This document shows, in pieces, positions 3,001 through 9,000 of a stretch of DNA of 25,501 nt. Made by a program: the position numbers. Every line of letters begins with the position of its first letter. Position 1 is the stretch's first letter. Source of the stretch: Verrucomicrobiota bacterium (lineage in GTDB: Bacteria; Verrucomicrobiota; Verrucomicrobiia; Limisphaerales; CANJSG01); NCBI GenBank assembly GCA_038209745.1, contig JBBQXJ010000070.1:1-25501 (forward strand), written 5' to 3'.

Positions 3001-6000
3001 GGGAAGTTCAGCAACGCCGCAAACCCTTCCGGAGTGGATCTCGGGACGACCGCGGGCTTTGGCGGGGAATTGGCCCTGTCCATTCCGCTCTGCTCCCGTG
3101 CGACGATCGGCTTCGGGTTCACGCCTGAATCCACGCTGCGGGCGGAGTGGGCCTACAATGACACCAATCCCGGTGCCACCGGCAATGCGCTGGTGCCGGG
3201 CGGGGTCAGCTACGGATTCCAGAAACACGAGTCGGAGATCATCGTCCTGCGGACCGCGCTCGGCCTGGGCGTGAAGATCACCGAAGCGCTGTCGGTCGGG
3301 GCGAGCGTCGGTCTGCTCTACAACGACAACCGGCTGACGGCGCCGTATGTCTTCCAGAGCCACCCCGGGCTGGCCGGATTGAAGACCCTGCTCGATCTGA
3401 GCGCGGAGGGTCTCGGGTTCGACGGGCAGATTGGCGCGCTGTGGCGGCCCACGCCGGGCTGGAGTTTCGCCGTGGCTTGGAAGAGTCCGTCGGTCGTGCA
3501 TGCGAAGGGGAACGCGAACGGGGACGCCGGCACCCAGCTCGGGGCGCCCTCGGTCCCGTTCCACTACGACGCCGAGGTGCAGAACCATTTTCCGCAAACA
3601 GTCTCGCTCGGCACCGCTTGGAAACCGGCGGAACGCTGGCGGCTCCTCGGCCAGATCGATTGGATCAACTGGTCCGACGCGTTCGACGTGCTGCGGGTCC
3701 GGTTGAGCAATGGCGACAACTCGACGATCAACGGCGTGCTCGGCACGACGTCCTTGAACGACGACGCCCCGCTCCGCTGGCGGGACACGTATGTCTTCAG
3801 AACCGGCGCCGAATACGATCTGACCGATTCCATCACCCTGCGGGCCGGCTACAGCTACGGTCGCAGCCCGGTGCCGGATGAGACGCTCACGCCGCTGACC
3901 GCCGTGATCCTGGAACACACGATCGGTCTCGGAGCGGGTTGGCACCGCGGCCGTTGGCAGGTGGACGCCGCCTGGCAGTGGGACTTGCCGACCACCCGTG
4001 ACGTCGGAACGAGCGCGTTGCAGGCGGGCGAATACAGCAACAGCTCGGTCAAGGCGGGGATCCACACGTTGGCGCTGACGGGAACCGTGAGGTTCTGAGA
4101 ACAAGGCGAGCCGGGCAGAGACCGGCCACGATGCGCCTGCTTGCGGCGAGTTGAACGGCGGACCGTTCGGCACCGGATCAACTGATCAGCAACAAGCGCG
4201 CGGGCTGGCCGGGAATCGATGCCGGTGCGCGGTGGATGCACGGGGGAACGGGACTGCCGGGATATTCCACGGCGATACGCCAGAGATGGCCGAGGCCGAA
4301 GGAAAACGGCTGCGCCCGCGGGTTCGGAGCGTAGTGGAGGTCGTAGCAGTTTTCGTTCAGGTATTCGAGGAAGTCGGCGTCGTCTTTCCCTCCGAAACAC
4401 CGGAGCAGTTCGGCGCGGGTTTCGGGGATGTCCACCCGCCGTTGCGCCTCGTCGTTGCGCAGCCCTTCGCTGGTGGGCCCGGTGTAGGTGCAAAGGTAGG
4501 TATCGGTGTCGGTCGTGGCGCTGTCCGCGTGGAACGAATAGACGTCCGTGCGCACGGCTCCCGGGTCATCGTCGCGCGGATAGTCCTGGATACAGTCGAG
4601 AATCGGGGCGAGCCCGTGGTCCCGGAGGAGTCGCTGGTCTGCCAGGAGGATTTCGATGGCGGCCAGACCCGCGACGCTCAGCGGGAGGCTGCGAAGTTGC
4701 GCCTCGTCGAGGTGGGCGATCCCGTCGACGGCACCGAGGCGTTCCACGACCTCGCCGAAGTCGCCCGCAAGGGTGCGCTGCCAGCAGAACGCGTTGACGC
4801 CGTCCCCAAACGGGGTCGTCACCAGTTCATGGAAGCTGCCCACCATCCGGATGCGGCTGTAGCTGGGAAGCGGGATCAAAGGAGTCATTTACGATTCAAG
4901 AACCGGCACGACATCGCACGAAAACGAGTTCGGCGCCGAGGTTGCCGGGGAAGAAAATGGCGAATCGGCCGGGCGGGGGGCAATCGTGAACTCCGGGTTT
5001 CCTCGGTTGCGGGTCGATTTGCGATGGATCTGATTTCTTGTCCGGGAAAGGGCTGGAGTGGTGAGGAATATCGCGTCTCCGTCCATTGCTGGCTTGCACT
5101 TCCGCCGGCCGACCTTATGCAGCTCCGGTCGTATCCGGTGGACGCTCAAACCAAATCATCTCCGTTCGTGGCCGCTCTGGGCGTCGGCGCCTTCACCCAG
5201 GGTGTCTTGTCGGCTCTCAAAGCCGACGGCGCACGCGTGGCCACCTACCTGACCCGGGACTACGCGCACCACGGGCCGGGACTCGTCGGTCCGGTCTTCG
5301 ATTCGGCCCTGGAACCGAACCCGTGCCCGATCTTCCGCACGGACCGGCCGGATCTGGTCCTCCCCATGTCGATCGAGTGGCGGCGGAGTCCTTGGGCGGA
5401 CGAGTTTCTCACGCTCGGCATCCCGTTTCTCTGTCCGACAGGCGCGGGCCTGGATCTGGAGCTGGACCGGGACTTTGCCCGCCGGCTTTGTGAACGGTTC
5501 GGGGTGGCGTTTCCGACCGCCTTCGTGGCCCGGGACCAGGCCGAGGCCGAGGCGCTGGTGCGGCAACATGGGAAACCGTTTGTCCTGAAGAACCCGCGCT
5601 GTGGTCCGTCCACTCCGATCCACACGATCGTCTGCGAAACGGTCGAGGACACGCTGGGCTGGCTGCCACGGCTGGACTACGCGGACGGCGTCTTTTTGCA
5701 GGAATACCTCGGACGCGCCGAGGCCGGGCACATCGCGCTGGTCAGCGCGGGCGAGATCCATTCGCTGGTCACGAACCAGGAATACAAACGGGCTTTCGAT
5801 GGCGACATGGGGGTGGTGGCGGGTGCGCCGATGGGCGGCTTGATCGAGCGGGATCCGGAGGATCGCCATGGGCTGTGCCGCGACCTGCTCCGGCCGCTGC
5901 TGCCTTGGTTTCGCGAGGTGGACTTCCATGGTCCGGTGCAGGTGACGGCGATCCGCCATGGGGGCCGGTGGCACGTGCTGGAATACAATGTGCGACTCGG

Positions 6001-9000
6001 CATCACTTCCGGACCGATGATCTGCCGGATGCTGGCGAATCCGTTGGAGACTTTGATGGCCTGTGCGCGGAACGAAGCGTTGTCGCCGCAATGGCGCGAA
6101 GGTCGGCGCTTCGGTTGTTCGGTGACGCTGGCGGGCTACGGCTATCCCTTCACGAAGATGGAGGGGCCGCGAGTGCCAGTCGTTCGTAGGCCGGCCATCC
6201 TCGTCCGGCCAGAAACTGCGAAGAACTTGCCGGATAAGGATACGGAAGTTCTCTGGAACGAAGTCGCCCTGTCGGAAGCGGGCGAGCTCGAGGCGACGGG
6301 TCATCGGCTCTGCGACGTGGCGTCATTGGCTCCGACGCTGTCGGCGGCGATTGCCTTAACCTATGCCGAGATCGGCCAATGGCGCAGCCTCGGCAGCTAC
6401 TTTCGGCGCGACGTCGGGCAGTCGCTCTGGCCGCCGGGTGTGGGCGCGGCGGGTCCCCGGGTGGAAACGGTGCCGGTGCGGGCCGCCTGGATCGAGATCG
6501 ACCACGCCCAGTTGCAGCGGAACTTCGAAGCGATTGTTGAGCGGGCCCGGGAAGCGAATCCGGACCAGCCTGCCCAGATCCTCTTCGTCGTGAAGGATGA
6601 CGGGTTCGGCCACGGCGCGGTCCAGACTTCGCACACGGCGTTGGCCTCGGGCGCCTCGCGATTGGCGGTCGCGACGGTGGGCGAGGCTTTGGAGTTGAGG
6701 CAGGGCGGCATCGACGCGCCGATCCTGGTCTATGGCGAACGTTCGCCGGATGAACTGGTCGAGTGCCTGAAGCACGGTCTGACCGTCTGCGTGAACGATC
6801 TGGCGACGCCGAACCTCCTCGGAAAACTCGCCATGGAACTGGGAATGAAAGCCCGCGTTCACCTGAAGATGAGCACCGGTATGAACCGGCACGGAGTCGA
6901 TTGGGAATCGGTGGCGGAGATCGGAGCCGCAGTCGGGCGGATTCCCGGGATCGAGATCGAGGGCGTGTTCAGCCACTTCGTCATGGCGGACGCGGCGGAT
7001 CATACGGTGTCGCTGGAGCAGGTGGAGCGGTTCCGCCAGGCGGTCGGCCGATTGAAGAACGCGGGGGTGCGGCCCGTGCTGCGGCATCTCTGCAACTCGG
7101 GCGGTTTCCTTAATTTTCCCCAGGCACACTTCGACATGGTCCGGCTGGGGATCCTGCCGCTGGGTTGGTATCCGTCGGACGATCTGCCCGAGGTGCATGG
7201 ATTGGCCCCGATCATGTCGGTCAAGGCGCGCGTCGCCTTGGTGCGGGAGATAGCGGCCGGCCAGACCGTCGGCTACGGCCGTCGTTATCGGGCCGAAAAA
7301 ACGCGGCGGATCGCAGTGCTGCCGATCGGCTTCGGCGACGGATATCCGCGCCTTTTGAACACGGGCTGTGTCCTCCTGCATGGCCGGCGCGTGCCGATTC
7401 GCGGCGGAGTGACGATGGACGCCATCATGGTCGACGTGACCGACCTGCCCGAAGTCGTGGCGGGCGACGAAGCCGTGTTGATGGGCGGCCAGGGCGGTGA
7501 ACAGATCTCGGTCCACGAGCTGGCCGGCGCCGCCAACACGGTGTCCTATGACATTCTCGTTCGTTGGAGCAGCCGGATGGAGCGGATTCATTTGCGATGA
7601 AACTTCTCTTTTCCGAATGGAAATCGGACTACGCCACCTACACCTATCCCTACGTGGTCTGGGGCATGCCGGAGGCCGGTGAAACGGCGCCGGACTTCTT
7701 CGAACGCGGCCTGTTGCCGGCGGCGCCGGACCTCAGCCGCTACTACGTCTGCCGGAATGTGCGGGTGGACTTGGCGAAGTTCCAGCCGTCGTCGGAGAAC
7801 CGCCGCATCCTGCGCAAAGGTCAGGGGATCGCCTGCGAATTGGTTCCTCGATCCGCCTACGAGTATTCGGAGACCAAGCGTGCGGCATGGAAGGCCTATG
7901 CGGACCAGCGCTTCGGCGAGGACATCATGTCCTTCGCCCGGCTGGACCGGTTGATGTCGTCGCCCGTGATCTCGCACCTTCTGGTCTTCCGCGAAGAGGC
8001 CACCGGGGCGGAGATCGGCACGGTGCTGATGTATGTCGATGGACCGCGCGTGGCCTACTACTACTATGCGTTCTTCGAGCTGGGCGGACTCTCGAAGAAT
8101 CTCGGCATGTTCATGATGACGGCAGCGGTGGAACGATTCGCCACGGAAGGCTTCGCCGCGATCTATCTGGGCACCTGCTACTCGGAACGCGCCCTCTACA
8201 AGACCCAGTTTCCGGGCGTGGAATTTTTCAACGGCGCCTGTTGGTCGTCGAACCTGGACGAACTGAAATACATGGTGCGTCGCGAACTAAACCCGGTGGA
8301 CAAACACGCCTTCGAAACGCCGGAGTTCCTCGGCCTGTTCTGGAACGGTTCACTGGAAGGGCTGGCGGAACGATCGGGCTTCAAGATCGGGAGTTGAGCG
8401 GCTGGCGTTAGGGGGCCCATTTTGGTGCGGGGCGGGGCTGTTTTCCGATTCCATAGAACAGGCGGTTCTGACCAAGATGGGGCATTCCTGAACATCCCGG
8501 CGTGCGTCAACGTCCTACCTCACCAACCCCCAACTCTATGGCATCAAAGAATCAACCCACCTTTCGCTACCAAGTTTCGCGCCGTCGCTTCCTCTACAGT
8601 TCCGCGCTCGGTGCCGCTGGCGCGATCCTGTTGCCCGGGTGCGCAACGACGCCCAACCCGCGTTTCAAGTCGCCGAACGAGAAGCTGAACATCGGCGTCA
8701 TCGGTGCCGGCGGCAAAGGCTCGTCCGACACCGACAGCTGCGCGAGCGAGAACATCGTCGCGCTCTGTGACGTGGATTCGGACACCCTCGACGAACGTGG
8801 CAAAAAGTATCCCGGCGCCCGGAAGTTCACCGACTTCCGCGTCATGCTGGAGCAGATGAAGAACCTGGATGCGGTGATCGTCGCCACGCCGGACCATATG
8901 CACGCGCCGGCCGCTGCAACGGCGATGAGGCTCGGCCTCCATGCCTATGTGCAGAAACCGCTCACACACGATGTGTTCGAGGCGCGAACCCTGCGCGAAT

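What a model noticed while it worked through the whole genome (the two positions that open the first line are those of the whole stretch)
5117..8397. The only alanine racemase is fused to a PurD-like ATP-grasp ligase and coupled to a Bpt/Fem-like transferase
Gene g03057 (827 aa) joins a divergent paralog of glycinamide-ribonucleotide synthetase PurD (aa 1-450) to the genome's only alanine racemase (aa 455-827), and the next gene, g03058, is a 266-aa protein distantly like aminoacyl-tRNA-protein transferases (Bpt) and Fem-type GNAT enzymes. I read the trio as a pathway in which D-alanine made on the spot is ligated by the PurD-like enzyme to an amine acceptor (as PurD ligates glycine) and the product is extended from an aminoacyl-tRNA, i.e. 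a D-Ala-containing cell-wall or peptide building block of Limisphaerales. A PurD paralog with an amino-acid-racemase partner has not been described, so this would define a new ATP-grasp ligase specificity.
Evidence so far: Pfam: GARS_A aa 118-293 (E 3e-7), weak GARS_C aa 335-435 (E 2e-5), Ala_racemase_N/C aa 461-824. Best solved relatives of aa 1-460 are all PurD, E 6e-20 to 8e-8 (10 of 10 hits, call 120); the true PurD is g00856 and Ddl is g01391, the other Ala_racemase_N rows are LysA, a D-Ser-dehydratase-like protein and YggS. Database: 12 fused proteins (806-858 aa, 73-99% identical) and about 85 stand-alone 454-607 aa homologs at 42-61%, while canonical PurD scores only E 2e-9. Homologs in 39 of 121 sampled Limisphaerales genomes, G000 included, and in 0 of 200 other Verrucomicrobiota. 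In 5 of 6 loci fetched from other families the order ligase, alanine racemase, g03058 homolog is kept as three separate g [...]
(Added by a program. Inside this text positions count along the whole contig: contig position 1 is position 1 of the stretch shown here. "Call 12" and the like, gene names such as g00115 and contig names such as C1 are that model's own, and its searches are not shown. The text may have been shortened before it was handed on; [...] marks where a part breaks off. The agent that wrote the report below was given it as the finding of a first reader that could run no searches.)

Follow-up and report, generated by a model that had tools for sequence, protein, structure and literature searches.

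The report
PurD-derived ligase, racemase, tRNA-transferase module
Two overlapping genes encode an enzyme descended from a purine-synthesis ligase fused to an alanine racemase, plus a relative of tRNA-dependent amino-acid transferases; the three travel together in one group of bacteria and probably build an unknown D-alanine-containing compound, perhaps for the cell wall.

Summary
Window 5117-7600 (+) encodes an 827-aa fusion of a PurD-fold ATP-grasp ligase (LIG, aa 1-454) and an alanine racemase (aa 455-827). Its stop overlaps (ATGA) the start of a 266-aa ATE1/Bpt-fold protein (BPT, 7597-8397). LIG is not GAR synthetase: it keeps the ATP/Mg and carboxylate-binding residues but lacks GGREHA, the GLAAGK B-loop and the GDPE motif, and a true PurD lies elsewhere.

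New here:
- In 151 genomes of the order, LIG and BPT each occur in 54 and together in 51. BPT tracks LIG, not the N-degron enzyme Aat.
- The LIG-linked racemases form their own clade (support 1.0), apart from stand-alone Alr. Some genomes carry both types.
- LIG is not confined to this order. It occurs in 35 of 81 genomes of the SAR324 phylum without BPT or an adjacent racemase.
- The fusion itself is confined to the window's close relatives.

Best reading (about 0.45): a dedicated pathway making a D-Ala-containing amide or peptide. The ligase activates D-Ala and the transferase extends it from an aminoacyl-tRNA. A cell-envelope target is suggested only by analogy with the AslA/RacD and Fem enzymes. 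Substrates are untested.

Verdict: a new variant of a known logic, of moderate to high interest.

The parts
5117..7600 (+). g03057, 827-aa fusion protein (LIG-Alr). An alternative start at 5024 would give 858 aa.
   Evidence: ORF and translation. Pfam and NCBIfam domains. There are 12 fused homologues of 806-858 aa. Fusion is seen in only 3 of 148 loci holding both genes, not de-duplicated.
5117..6478 (+). LIG domain: a PurD-fold ATP-grasp ligase that lacks the GAR-synthetase substrate motifs.
   Evidence: TIGR00877 scores 76.7 bits against a cut-off of 288. The AF2 model has pLDDT 89.1, and Foldseek ranks 1-15 are all PurD, with TMq 0.80 to 2yw2. Motif comparison. The family forms a clade apart from PurD with support 1.0.
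6479..7600 (+). Alanine racemase domain of a module-specific lineage.
   Evidence: TIGR00492 scores 318.3 bits against a cut-off of 168. The best solved relatives are alanine racemases. The LIG-linked clade has support 1.0. Clade-specific substitutions.
7597..8397 (+). g03058 (BPT), a 266-aa ATE1/Bpt-fold protein and putative aminoacyl-tRNA-dependent transferase that lacks the ATE_N cysteine motif.
7597..7600 (+). ATGA overlap of the g03057 stop and the g03058 start.
   Evidence: Read directly from the sequence. That the overlap couples translation of the two genes is my inference from the 4-base overlap; no call tested it.

Best explanation
The two genes encode a three-enzyme pathway that makes a D-alanine-containing amide or peptide.

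(1) The racemase domain, a lineage dedicated to this module, supplies D-Ala. In this genome it is also the only source of D-Ala for the cell.

(2) The PurD-derived ATP-grasp domain does PurD-type chemistry. It forms an acyl phosphate from a small amino-acid carboxylate and then lets an amine attack. Both substrate sites are remodelled. The acyl substrate is most likely D-Ala instead of glycine, and the amine is not phosphoribosylamine.

(3) The ATE1/Bpt-type protein then adds an aminoacyl residue from an aminoacyl-tRNA to the free amino group of that product.

The final product is unknown. By analogy with the racemase + ATP-grasp + tRNA-transferase logic of peptidoglycan side chains, a cell-envelope peptide is my first guess.

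Shown: the gene structure; the folds; retention of catalytic residues and loss of the PurD substrate residues; co-inheritance of the three genes; the separate racemase clade.

Inferred: every substrate, the order of the steps, tRNA dependence and the cellular target.
For: Coupling of the three genes.
- LIG and Alr are fused here and in close relatives.
- LIG is followed by Alr in 64 of 80 genome loci, and in 46 of 53 metagenome loci with at least 2.5 kb downstream.
- All three genes are present in 40 of 80 genome loci and 27 of 53 metagenome loci.
- Every pairwise linkage is seen when the trio is broken. LIG-Alr occurs without BPT (G001, G137). Alr-BPT lies about 15 kb from LIG in G135.
- In 151 genomes of the order, LIG is in 54, BPT in 54 and both in 51. 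Three of the six exceptions are contig ends.
- In three families with mixed presence (f10, f11, f21), the same genomes hold both genes.
- Four of four Verrucomicrobiota genomes whose LIG locus lacks BPT encode it elsewhere.
- BPT does not follow Aat: Aat is in 33 of 54 BPT+ genomes and 67 of 97 BPT- genomes. I made this overlap by eye.

Dedicated racemase.
- The 38 LIG-linked Alr form a clade with support 1.0 against 25 stand-alone or other-phylum Alr.
- G009, G023, G057, G084, G124 and the closed genome G397 carry both types.
- The PLP-lysine motif, the HxK..TGM.R motif and the GYG/Y motifs are kept.

The ligase is not PurD but looks catalytically intact.
- Kept: E115, R118 (Lys in PurD), K158, E202, K224, E289, N291, R293.
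- Changed: GGREHA to GVGAFTQ; the GLAAGK B-loop to CSPxSPxHT; DHKR to QEYKR; GDPE to G(V/I)T(S/T).
- Residue roles come from passages of PMC8880213 and PMC2978367.

Precedent. AslA (ATP-grasp) with racD in one operon adds D-Asp to the stem peptide, and L-residues come from aminoacyl-tRNA via BppA1/2 (PMC4155827, passages).
Against: No substrate has been tested.

In the SAR324 phylum the ligase occurs in 35 of 81 genomes. None of the 81 has a BPT-type match better than E 2.8e-8. The racemase is encoded elsewhere in these genomes, and the ligase's neighbours vary. The ligase therefore does not need BPT, and its link to D-Ala there rests on nothing.

Of the four PurD residues that hold glycine, only the Arg is kept and one Asp becomes Glu. 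The acyl substrate may therefore not be an alpha-amino acid at all.

Asn of GPNTGGMG, which contacts the ATP phosphates in human GARS (PMC2978367), is Val here.

No peptidoglycan gene is a conserved neighbour.

G095 keeps BPT without LIG or Alr. G001 has LIG-Alr without BPT.

The window's BPT does not reach any curated ATE threshold.
Confidence: 0.45

Rival explanations
1. D-Ala is the nucleophile, not the acyl substrate. The ligase activates some other carboxylate, as PurT does with formate or PurK with bicarbonate, and acylates the amino group of D-Ala. BPT then acts on a different position or a different molecule.
For: The acidic residues that hold the ammonium group of glycine in PurD are largely lost: GDPE becomes G(V/I)T(S/T). 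The PRA-side residues of GGREHA are also replaced, so the amine site is new as well. After PurD, the next structural relatives are carboxylases that activate bicarbonate.
Against: A product with a blocked D-Ala amine would leave no obvious amino group for an ATE-type transferase. The Arg that binds the carboxylate or acyl phosphate is kept, and Asp212 of PurD is conservatively Glu.
Confidence: 0.15
2. The module makes a free, soluble small molecule such as an osmolyte, signal or antibiotic-like di- or tripeptide, rather than a cell-envelope component.
Against: No transporter, regulator or tailoring gene is conserved beside it. In most carriers the module racemase is the only Alr, which ties it to housekeeping D-Ala.
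Confidence: 0.15
3. The module modifies proteins. BPT is this lineage's Bpt-like N-degron transferase, and the ligase adds an amino acid to a protein carboxylate, as RimK or LysX do.
For: The closest fold and family of BPT are the protein-modifying ATE1/Bpt enzymes. The genome has ClpS and Aat but no canonical Bpt.
Against: BPT follows LIG (51 of 54), not Aat (33 of 54 BPT+ against 67 of 97 BPT-). ClpS and Aat lie together on another contig. BPT lacks the ATE_N cysteine motif. A racemase has no place in N-degron tagging.
Confidence: 0.1
4. Coincidence of an operon. The racemase is simply the housekeeping Alr, and the ligase and g03058 have unrelated jobs.
For: It is the only Alr found in this assembly and in most carriers. 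The ligase works without a linked Alr in the SAR324 phylum.
Against: The LIG-linked Alr form a separate clade with support 1.0, and second ordinary Alr copies exist in six genomes. There is an in-frame fusion. Adjacency holds over sequences only 47-60% identical. LIG and BPT co-occur even when unlinked.
Confidence: 0.1

Closest known systems
PurD, glycinamide ribonucleotide synthetase (EC 6.3.4.13; TIGR00877, PROSITE PS00184)
   Same: Same four-domain fold: TMq 0.80 and rmsd 3.3 A to 2yw2, with Foldseek ranks 1-15 all PurD. The ATP-grasp catalytic residues and the Arg that holds the carboxylate or acyl phosphate are kept.
   Different: Scores 76.7 bits against a cut-off of 288. It lacks GGREHA, the GLAAGK B-loop, the Asp of DHKR and the GDPE motif. 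It forms its own clade with support 1.0. The genome has a separate true PurD.
AslA/Aslfm D-aspartate ligase with RacD aspartate racemase, plus Fem-type transferases (BppA1/2, FemX) of Gram-positive peptidoglycan side chains
   Same: The same three-part logic. A racemase and an ATP-grasp ligase sit in one operon for the D-residue, and aminoacyl-tRNA-dependent GNAT-fold transferases add the L-residues (PMC4155827 passages).
Bpt / ATE1 aminoacyl-tRNA-protein transferases (PF04376 + PF04377; NCBIfam PRK01305 models)
   Same: Whole-length fold match to human and yeast ATE1. Shared core motifs with canonical Bpt include R..F.PS...RR, Y.F and YK. The G397 homologue passes the ATE_C cut-off at 29.2 against 25 bits.
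   Different: No ATE_N cysteine motif. The window protein is below all curated cut-offs. It is inherited with a ligase and a racemase, not with Aat.
Bifunctional MurF-alanine racemase (NCBIfam NF008897)
   Same: An alanine racemase fused C-terminally to an ATP-dependent amide ligase that handles D-Ala-containing substrates. The racemase part matches at 257.7 bits.
   Different: The N-terminal partner here is PurD-fold ATP-grasp, not a Mur ligase. The score is far below the cut-off of 804.

Membership tests
PurD / GAR synthetase | Score over the curated TIGR00877 cut-off | tested here: not met
   76.7 bits against 288. The genome's true PurD scores 503.7 bits.
PurD / GAR synthetase | PROSITE PS00184 motif R[LF]GDPE, whose Asp and Glu hold glycine and the PRA amine | tested here: not met
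   The window has RLGITS and the family has RLG(V/I)T(S/T). The motif and its roles come from passages of PMC3261824 and PMC2978367.
PurD / GAR synthetase | N-domain GGREHA loop (Arg13/Glu14 of human GARS) and the GLAAGK B-loop | tested here: not met
   GVGAFTQ replaces GGREHA, and CSPxSPxHT with two extra residues replaces GLAAGK. Both replacements are conserved across the family.
PurD / GAR synthetase | Four-domain PurD fold | tested here: met
   The AF2 model has pLDDT 89.1. The match to 2yw2 has E 6e-31 and TMq 0.80, and ranks 1-15 are all PurD.
ATP-grasp superfamily (carboxylate-amine ligases) | ATP- and Mg-binding Lys/Glu/Asn residues | tested here: met
   K158, E202, K224, E289 and N291 align with Lys143, Glu192, Lys214 and the E-x-N of Aquifex PurD (roles from PMC8880213). 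Activity was not tested.
Alanine racemase (TIGR00492) | Score over the curated cut-off, and both Pfam domains | tested here: met
   318.3 bits against 168. Ala_racemase_N at 197 bits and Ala_racemase_C at 141.5 bits. The top solved relatives are alanine racemases.
Alanine racemase (TIGR00492) | Catalytic PLP-lysine and tyrosine motifs, and the carboxylate-binding Arg motif | tested here: met
   VVKD..GHG, HLK..TGM.R.G and GYG..Y are kept in the module clade. The roles of these motifs are recalled, not taken from a call. Substrate preference was not tested.
ATE/Bpt aminoacyl-tRNA-protein transferases | Score over the Pfam ATE_C or NCBIfam arginyltransferase cut-offs | tested here: not met
   The window protein has no Pfam hit and its best NCBIfam score is 46.8 bits against 267. 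Some homologues pass ATE_C: G397 at 29.2 against 25, and some have precomputed PF04377.
ATE/Bpt aminoacyl-tRNA-protein transferases | ATE_N region with conserved cysteines | tested here: not met
   The CP..C..C motif of canonical Bpt (L039, L040) has no counterpart in the 29 BPT-type rows of alignment A2.
ATE/Bpt aminoacyl-tRNA-protein transferases | Whole-length ATE1-type fold | tested here: met
ATE/Bpt aminoacyl-tRNA-protein transferases | Transfer from an aminoacyl-tRNA to an N-terminal amine | not testable with these tools
   Needs a biochemical assay.
Fem-type peptidoglycan transferases (FemX/FemA/BppA) | Fold and family membership | tested here: inconclusive
Racemase + ATP-grasp peptidoglycan side-chain system (AslA/RacD type) | The ligase acts on a UDP-MurNAc-peptide or lipid intermediate | not testable with these tools
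   Only the operon logic is shared. No peptidoglycan gene is a conserved neighbour.

The most novel reading that the evidence does not exclude
A diderm bacterium builds a branched cell-wall peptide by a route unrelated to the Gram-positive enzymes. A PurD-derived ligase attaches D-Ala to the free amine of the peptidoglycan stem peptide, and an ATE1/Bpt-type enzyme extends it from an aminoacyl-tRNA. Those enzymes are otherwise known only for tagging proteins for degradation. This would be the first non-protein substrate for that transferase family, a new ATP-grasp specificity born from purine metabolism, and a new peptidoglycan chemotype in Verrucomicrobiota.
Probability: 0.15. Interest if true: 0.85.

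Novelty: new variant of a known kind. Interest (0 to 1): 0.65.

Why it matters
It defines a well-delimited, uncharacterised subfamily of PurD-type ATP-grasp ligases. At least 465 species-level genomes in the collection encode a relative. Databases label them phosphoribosylamine-glycine ligase or alanine racemase, which is almost certainly wrong for the ligase.

The comparative evidence is unusually clean: fusion, adjacency, co-occurrence when unlinked, and a co-evolving racemase clade. That makes this a directly testable case of a purine enzyme recruited into D-amino-acid chemistry, and of an ATE/Bpt-type transferase working outside the N-degron pathway.

If the target is the cell wall, it would change the picture of peptidoglycan diversity in an abundant but barely cultured soil and freshwater group.

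Tried and rejected
- Phage origin or phage relatives. The ESM Atlas listed LIG-like and ATE-like clusters whose few labelled members are viral. Two IMG/VR scans found no relative. tblastn against 50,697 phage records gave only PurD-level matches at 21-26% identity for LIG and nothing for BPT. I dropped this as a lead only.
- More distant ligase relatives. I tried to reach the genomic context of P0130, P0134, P0139, P0145 and P0161 (31-42% identical). The genome and metagenome scans returned only the Verrucomicrobiota/SAR-type family at 33-38% identity to P0139. Whether other phyla pair such ligases with ATE-like genes, as earlier scan notes say, could not be tested here.
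- Further conserved neighbours. All-against-all clustering of flanking ORFs in 107 loci found none shared beyond lineage-specific ones of up to 13 loci.
- Replacement of Ddl by the ligase. Rejected for this genome, because Ddl is present.
- Complex prediction of LIG with BPT.
- Promoter and terminator scan of 4700-8700. It found 0 sites of either kind, which is uninformative for this phylum.
- Literature. Searches for an ATP-grasp or PurD-like ligase together with alanine racemase, or with an aminoacyl-tRNA, tRNA-dependent or arginyl transferase, found no description of this module. Passages of the Lipocone preprint were checked. Iyer et al. 2009 (Mol Biosyst 5:1636, recalled) is the most likely place for a prior prediction. 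It is not held, so priority cannot be excluded.

Full report
WHAT IS THERE

The + frame is open from 4151 to 7600. The stretch before 5117 is the antisense of a minus-strand ORF at 4178-4888 (236 aa, weak DUF1826 hit). From ATG 5117 the gene gives 827 aa. An ATG at 5024 would give 858 aa, the length of database protein P0273.

- Residues 118-293 and 335-435 match GARS_A (31.1 bits) and GARS_C (24.3 bits, below the gathering score). Residues 461-824 match both alanine-racemase domains.
- NCBIfam gives alr TIGR00492 at 318.3 bits (cut-off 168) and purD TIGR00877 at only 76.7 bits (cut-off 288).
- The next gene starts at ATG 7597 inside the sequence GCGATGA, so its start overlaps the stop of the fusion gene. 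It encodes 266 aa with no Pfam hit and sub-threshold matches to NCBIfam arginyltransferase models (best E 2.1e-12, 46.8 bits against 267).
- The flanking genes look unrelated to each other and are not conserved beside the module, except in the closest relative L001. They are a rhomboid protease, a FadL-type porin, a GFO/IDH-type glycoside 3-dehydrogenase-like protein and a GDSL hydrolase.

THE LIGASE DOMAIN (LIG)

All 10 solved sequence relatives are PurD. An AF2 model (pLDDT 89.1) matches PurD structures in Foldseek ranks 1-15. The best is Aquifex 2yw2 at E 6e-31 and TMq 0.80. Biotin carboxylases follow at E about 1e-19.

I aligned LIG to Aquifex PurD and to 24 family members, 8 more distant PurD-like representatives (5 of the wider ligase family and 3 other variants) and 13 PurD. 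I read residue roles from passages of PMC8880213 and PMC2978367.

Kept, the ATP, Mg and acyl-phosphate machinery:
- E115, and R118 where PurD has Lys103;
- K158, E202 and K224;
- E289 and N291;
- R293, the Arg that binds the glycine carboxylate.

Lost, the PurD-specific substrate residues:
- GGREHA becomes GVG(A/S)F(T/A)(Q/H). This removes the Arg and Glu proposed to hold the phosphate and ribose of PRA.
- The GLAAGK B-loop becomes CSPxSPxHT, two residues longer.
- DHKR becomes QEYKR.
- GPNTGGMG becomes G(I/P)VAGAPLGG.
- The PROSITE motif RFGDPE becomes RLG(V/I)T(S/T). This removes the Asp and Glu that bind glycine and the PRA amine.

The new motifs are nearly invariant across the family, so this is a constrained enzyme with different substrates, not a decaying paralogue.

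In a FastTree of that alignment the family is a clade with support 1.0, apart from canonical PurD (1.0). It splits into a Verrucomicrobiota branch (0.845) and a SAR324-type branch (0.985), which are sisters (0.997). An exhaustive HMMER search of 1.84 billion representatives found only 44 clusters at E <= 1e-30, many of them fragments, and PurD-level matches beyond that. The genome has a true PurD (503.7 bits) and a Ddl.

THE RACEMASE DOMAIN

Its best solved relatives are alanine racemases. In this 92%-complete assembly it is the only canonical Alr. The other three PF01168 matches are a protein with only an Ala_racemase_N domain, a D-Ser-dehydratase-like protein and an Orn/DAP-decarboxylase-type protein.

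The new point is that it is not the ordinary Alr of the order. TIGR00492 finds an Alr in 111 of 151 genomes of the order. I compared racemases that sit in LIG loci with stand-alone ones, including the second copies of G009, G023, G057, G084 and G124. The LIG-linked ones form one clade and the stand-alone ones fall outside it (92 sequences). With five Alr from other phyla and the G397 copy added, the LIG-linked clade of 38 has SH-like support 1.0 against the other 25 (the LIG-linked set was thinned to every second sequence).

The clade keeps the PLP-lysine, HxK..TGM.R and GYG..Y motifs. It has fixed changes next to them: Ala to Asp after the lysine, SYG to GYG, MDQ to MDA and RPG to RVG. The roles of these motifs are recalled, not taken from a call. 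The carboxylate-binding motif is intact, so a free amino acid remains the likely substrate.

THE THIRD PROTEIN (BPT)

Aligned with two canonical Bpt from SAR324-phylum genomes, it shares the core motifs but lacks the N-terminal cysteine motif. The homologue in G397 passes the Pfam ATE_C cut-off (29.2 against 25 bits). The database holds 2690 proteins at E <= 0.001 among 3736 candidates. The best 120 are 55-100% identical, and sources name them arginyltransferase, GNAT or hypothetical.

ARE THE THREE FUNCTIONALLY LINKED?

Adjacency:
- In 28 loci found with the ligase, 11 have LIG-Alr-BPT in that order, 2 have LIG-Alr, and 15 have LIG alone. Twelve of the 15 are from SAR324, 'Deltaproteobacteria' or other non-Verrucomicrobiota MAGs, and one is a 23%-identical PurD-like gene.
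- In the best 80 of 465 genome loci, Alr follows LIG in 64 and all three genes are present in 40.
- In 80 metagenome loci, 53 have at least 2.5 kb downstream of LIG. Of these, 46 have Alr, 27 have Alr and BPT, 6 have neither and 1 has BPT only.
- These sets overlap in part and hold close relatives, so the counts are not independent.

Fusion:
- Only 3 of 148 loci holding both genes (not de-duplicated) have them in one frame. All three are the window's closest relatives.
- This agrees with the 12 fused database proteins at 73-99% identity.

Co-occurrence across genomes:
- In 151 genomes of the order, LIG is in 54, BPT in 54 and both in 51.
- Of the LIG-only genomes, G063 and G148 have the ligase at a contig end and G001 does not.
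- Of the BPT-only genomes, the G012 contig starts inside the racemase gene. G095 and G020 show neither LIG nor Alr.
- In three families with mixed presence (f10, f11, f21), the same genomes hold both genes.
- The genes co-occur even when unlinked. At least 13 genomes have LIG and BPT on different contigs or far apart. Four of four Verrucomicrobiota genomes whose LIG locus lacks BPT encode it elsewhere.
- When the trio is split, all pairings are seen: LIG-Alr with BPT 2.3 kb away on the other strand (G137), and Alr-BPT about 15 kb from LIG (G135).

BPT does not follow the N-degron kit:
- The genome has ClpS and Aat side by side on contig C21.
- Aat is in 100 of 151 genomes of the order: 33 of the 54 with BPT and 67 of the 97 without. 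I made this overlap by eye.

RANGE

Outside the order, 1 of 250 other Verrucomicrobiota genomes has the ligase. This is G397, a closed 4.15-Mb genome with a tight LIG-Alr-BPT operon and a second Alr elsewhere.

In the phylum of G151 (SAR324), LIG is in 35 of 81 genomes at 43-53% identity. None of the 81 has a BPT-type match better than E 2.8e-8, which is the level of canonical Bpt. The ligase's neighbours there differ from locus to locus: type II secretion ATPase with Liv transporters, menaquinone genes, or an acyltransferase with a hydrolase. Alr is encoded elsewhere in 5 of 5 LIG-positive non-Verrucomicrobiota genomes tested, four from the SAR324 group and one KSB1. One 'Lysobacterales' MAG has both LIG and BPT at Verrucomicrobiota-like identity. 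I could not tell transfer from mis-binning.

HOW IT MOST LIKELY WORKS

Shown: a PurD scaffold with an intact catalytic core and rebuilt substrate sites; a co-evolving racemase; a co-inherited ATE1-fold protein.

Inferred: the racemase feeds D-Ala to the ligase. The ligase activates D-Ala as the acyl phosphate, in the position PurD gives to glycine, and couples it to an amine that is not PRA. The ATE-type enzyme then adds an aminoacyl residue from a tRNA to the free amino group of the D-Ala.

The known precedent for exactly this division of labour is the peptidoglycan side chain of lactic acid bacteria and enterococci. There the ATP-grasp ligase AslA and the racemase RacD, in one operon, add D-Asp, and tRNA-dependent transferases add the L-residues (PMC4155827, passages). 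That analogy is my only reason to favour a cell-envelope target.

Points against the details:
- Three of the four glycine-binding residues of PurD are changed, so the acyl substrate may not be an amino acid (rival 1).
- The ligase lives without BPT or a linked Alr in the SAR324 phylum.
- No envelope gene is a conserved neighbour.

I put 0.45 on the general scheme and about 0.15 on the peptidoglycan version.

COMPARISON AND NOVELTY

The ligase fails four defining tests of PurD and passes only fold and catalytic core, so it should not be filed as GAR synthetase. BPT has the ATE1 fold but fails the curated thresholds and lacks ATE_N. The racemase passes as Alr.

My literature searches found no description of the module. 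The library is limited, and Iyer et al. 2009 (recalled) could not be read. Two earlier notes of this scan describe the same module in other genomes. They agree with this reading but are not independent evidence.

I rate it a new variant of a known kind, with interest 0.65.

Noticed in passing
window 4151-5116 (+) and 4178-4888 (-): The + frame of g03057 stays open for 322 codons upstream of its start. This is the antisense shadow of a 236-aa minus-strand ORF with a weak DUF1826 hit (E 1.7e-5). High G+C content makes such long false frames common here.
   Followed up: partly
L041 (G095:C23) 6238-9446: In the congener that shows neither ligase nor racemase, the g03058 homologue sits after a methionyl-tRNA synthetase gene and a 207-aa ORF with no Pfam hit, and before a TPR protein. 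The tRNA-transferase-like gene has thus moved next to a tRNA synthetase.
   Followed up: partly
order sample: Of 151 genomes of the order, 40 give no TIGR00492 alanine racemase at E <= 1e-20 (30 of the 110 high-quality genomes). Some of these are 96-98% complete. How they make D-Ala is open.
   Followed up: no
L005 4674-5792 and L007 4654-5814: In two loci where the ligase has no adjacent racemase, a PfkB-type 'prokaryotic ketohexokinase' (Khk, E about 1e-64) lies directly upstream on the same strand. This may hint at a sugar-phosphate substrate, but it is seen in one lineage only.
   Followed up: no
(ESM Atlas): Feature-space neighbours of both the ligase and the transferase include clusters whose few labelled members are phages (Uroviricota). 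This was not confirmed in IMG/VR or in the phage record collection.
   Followed up: partly
window 18663-24161 (-): An 1832-aa ORF with two Lamin-tail domains and a CotH kinase domain. A 1103-aa ORF on the opposite strand overlaps it and is probably spurious.
   Followed up: no
window 8502-9914 (+): A GFO/IDH/MocA oxidoreductase with a TAT signal that matches the glycoside 3-dehydrogenase BT_2158 family at 440.8 bits, below the cut-off of 750. It is conserved next to the module only in the closest relative L001.
   Followed up: no
L043 (G020:C40) 5668-7755 (-): The BPT homologue of G020 lies at the end of a 695-aa open frame with no Pfam hit. This genome shows no ligase or Alr. The long frame may be a chance extension or an N-terminal fusion.
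   Followed up: no
L021 and L038 (G155): A MAG labelled Lysobacterales carries both the ligase (53% identity, possibly frameshifted into two pieces) and a BPT homologue (52% identity) on different contigs. I could not distinguish mis-binning from horizontal transfer.
   Followed up: no
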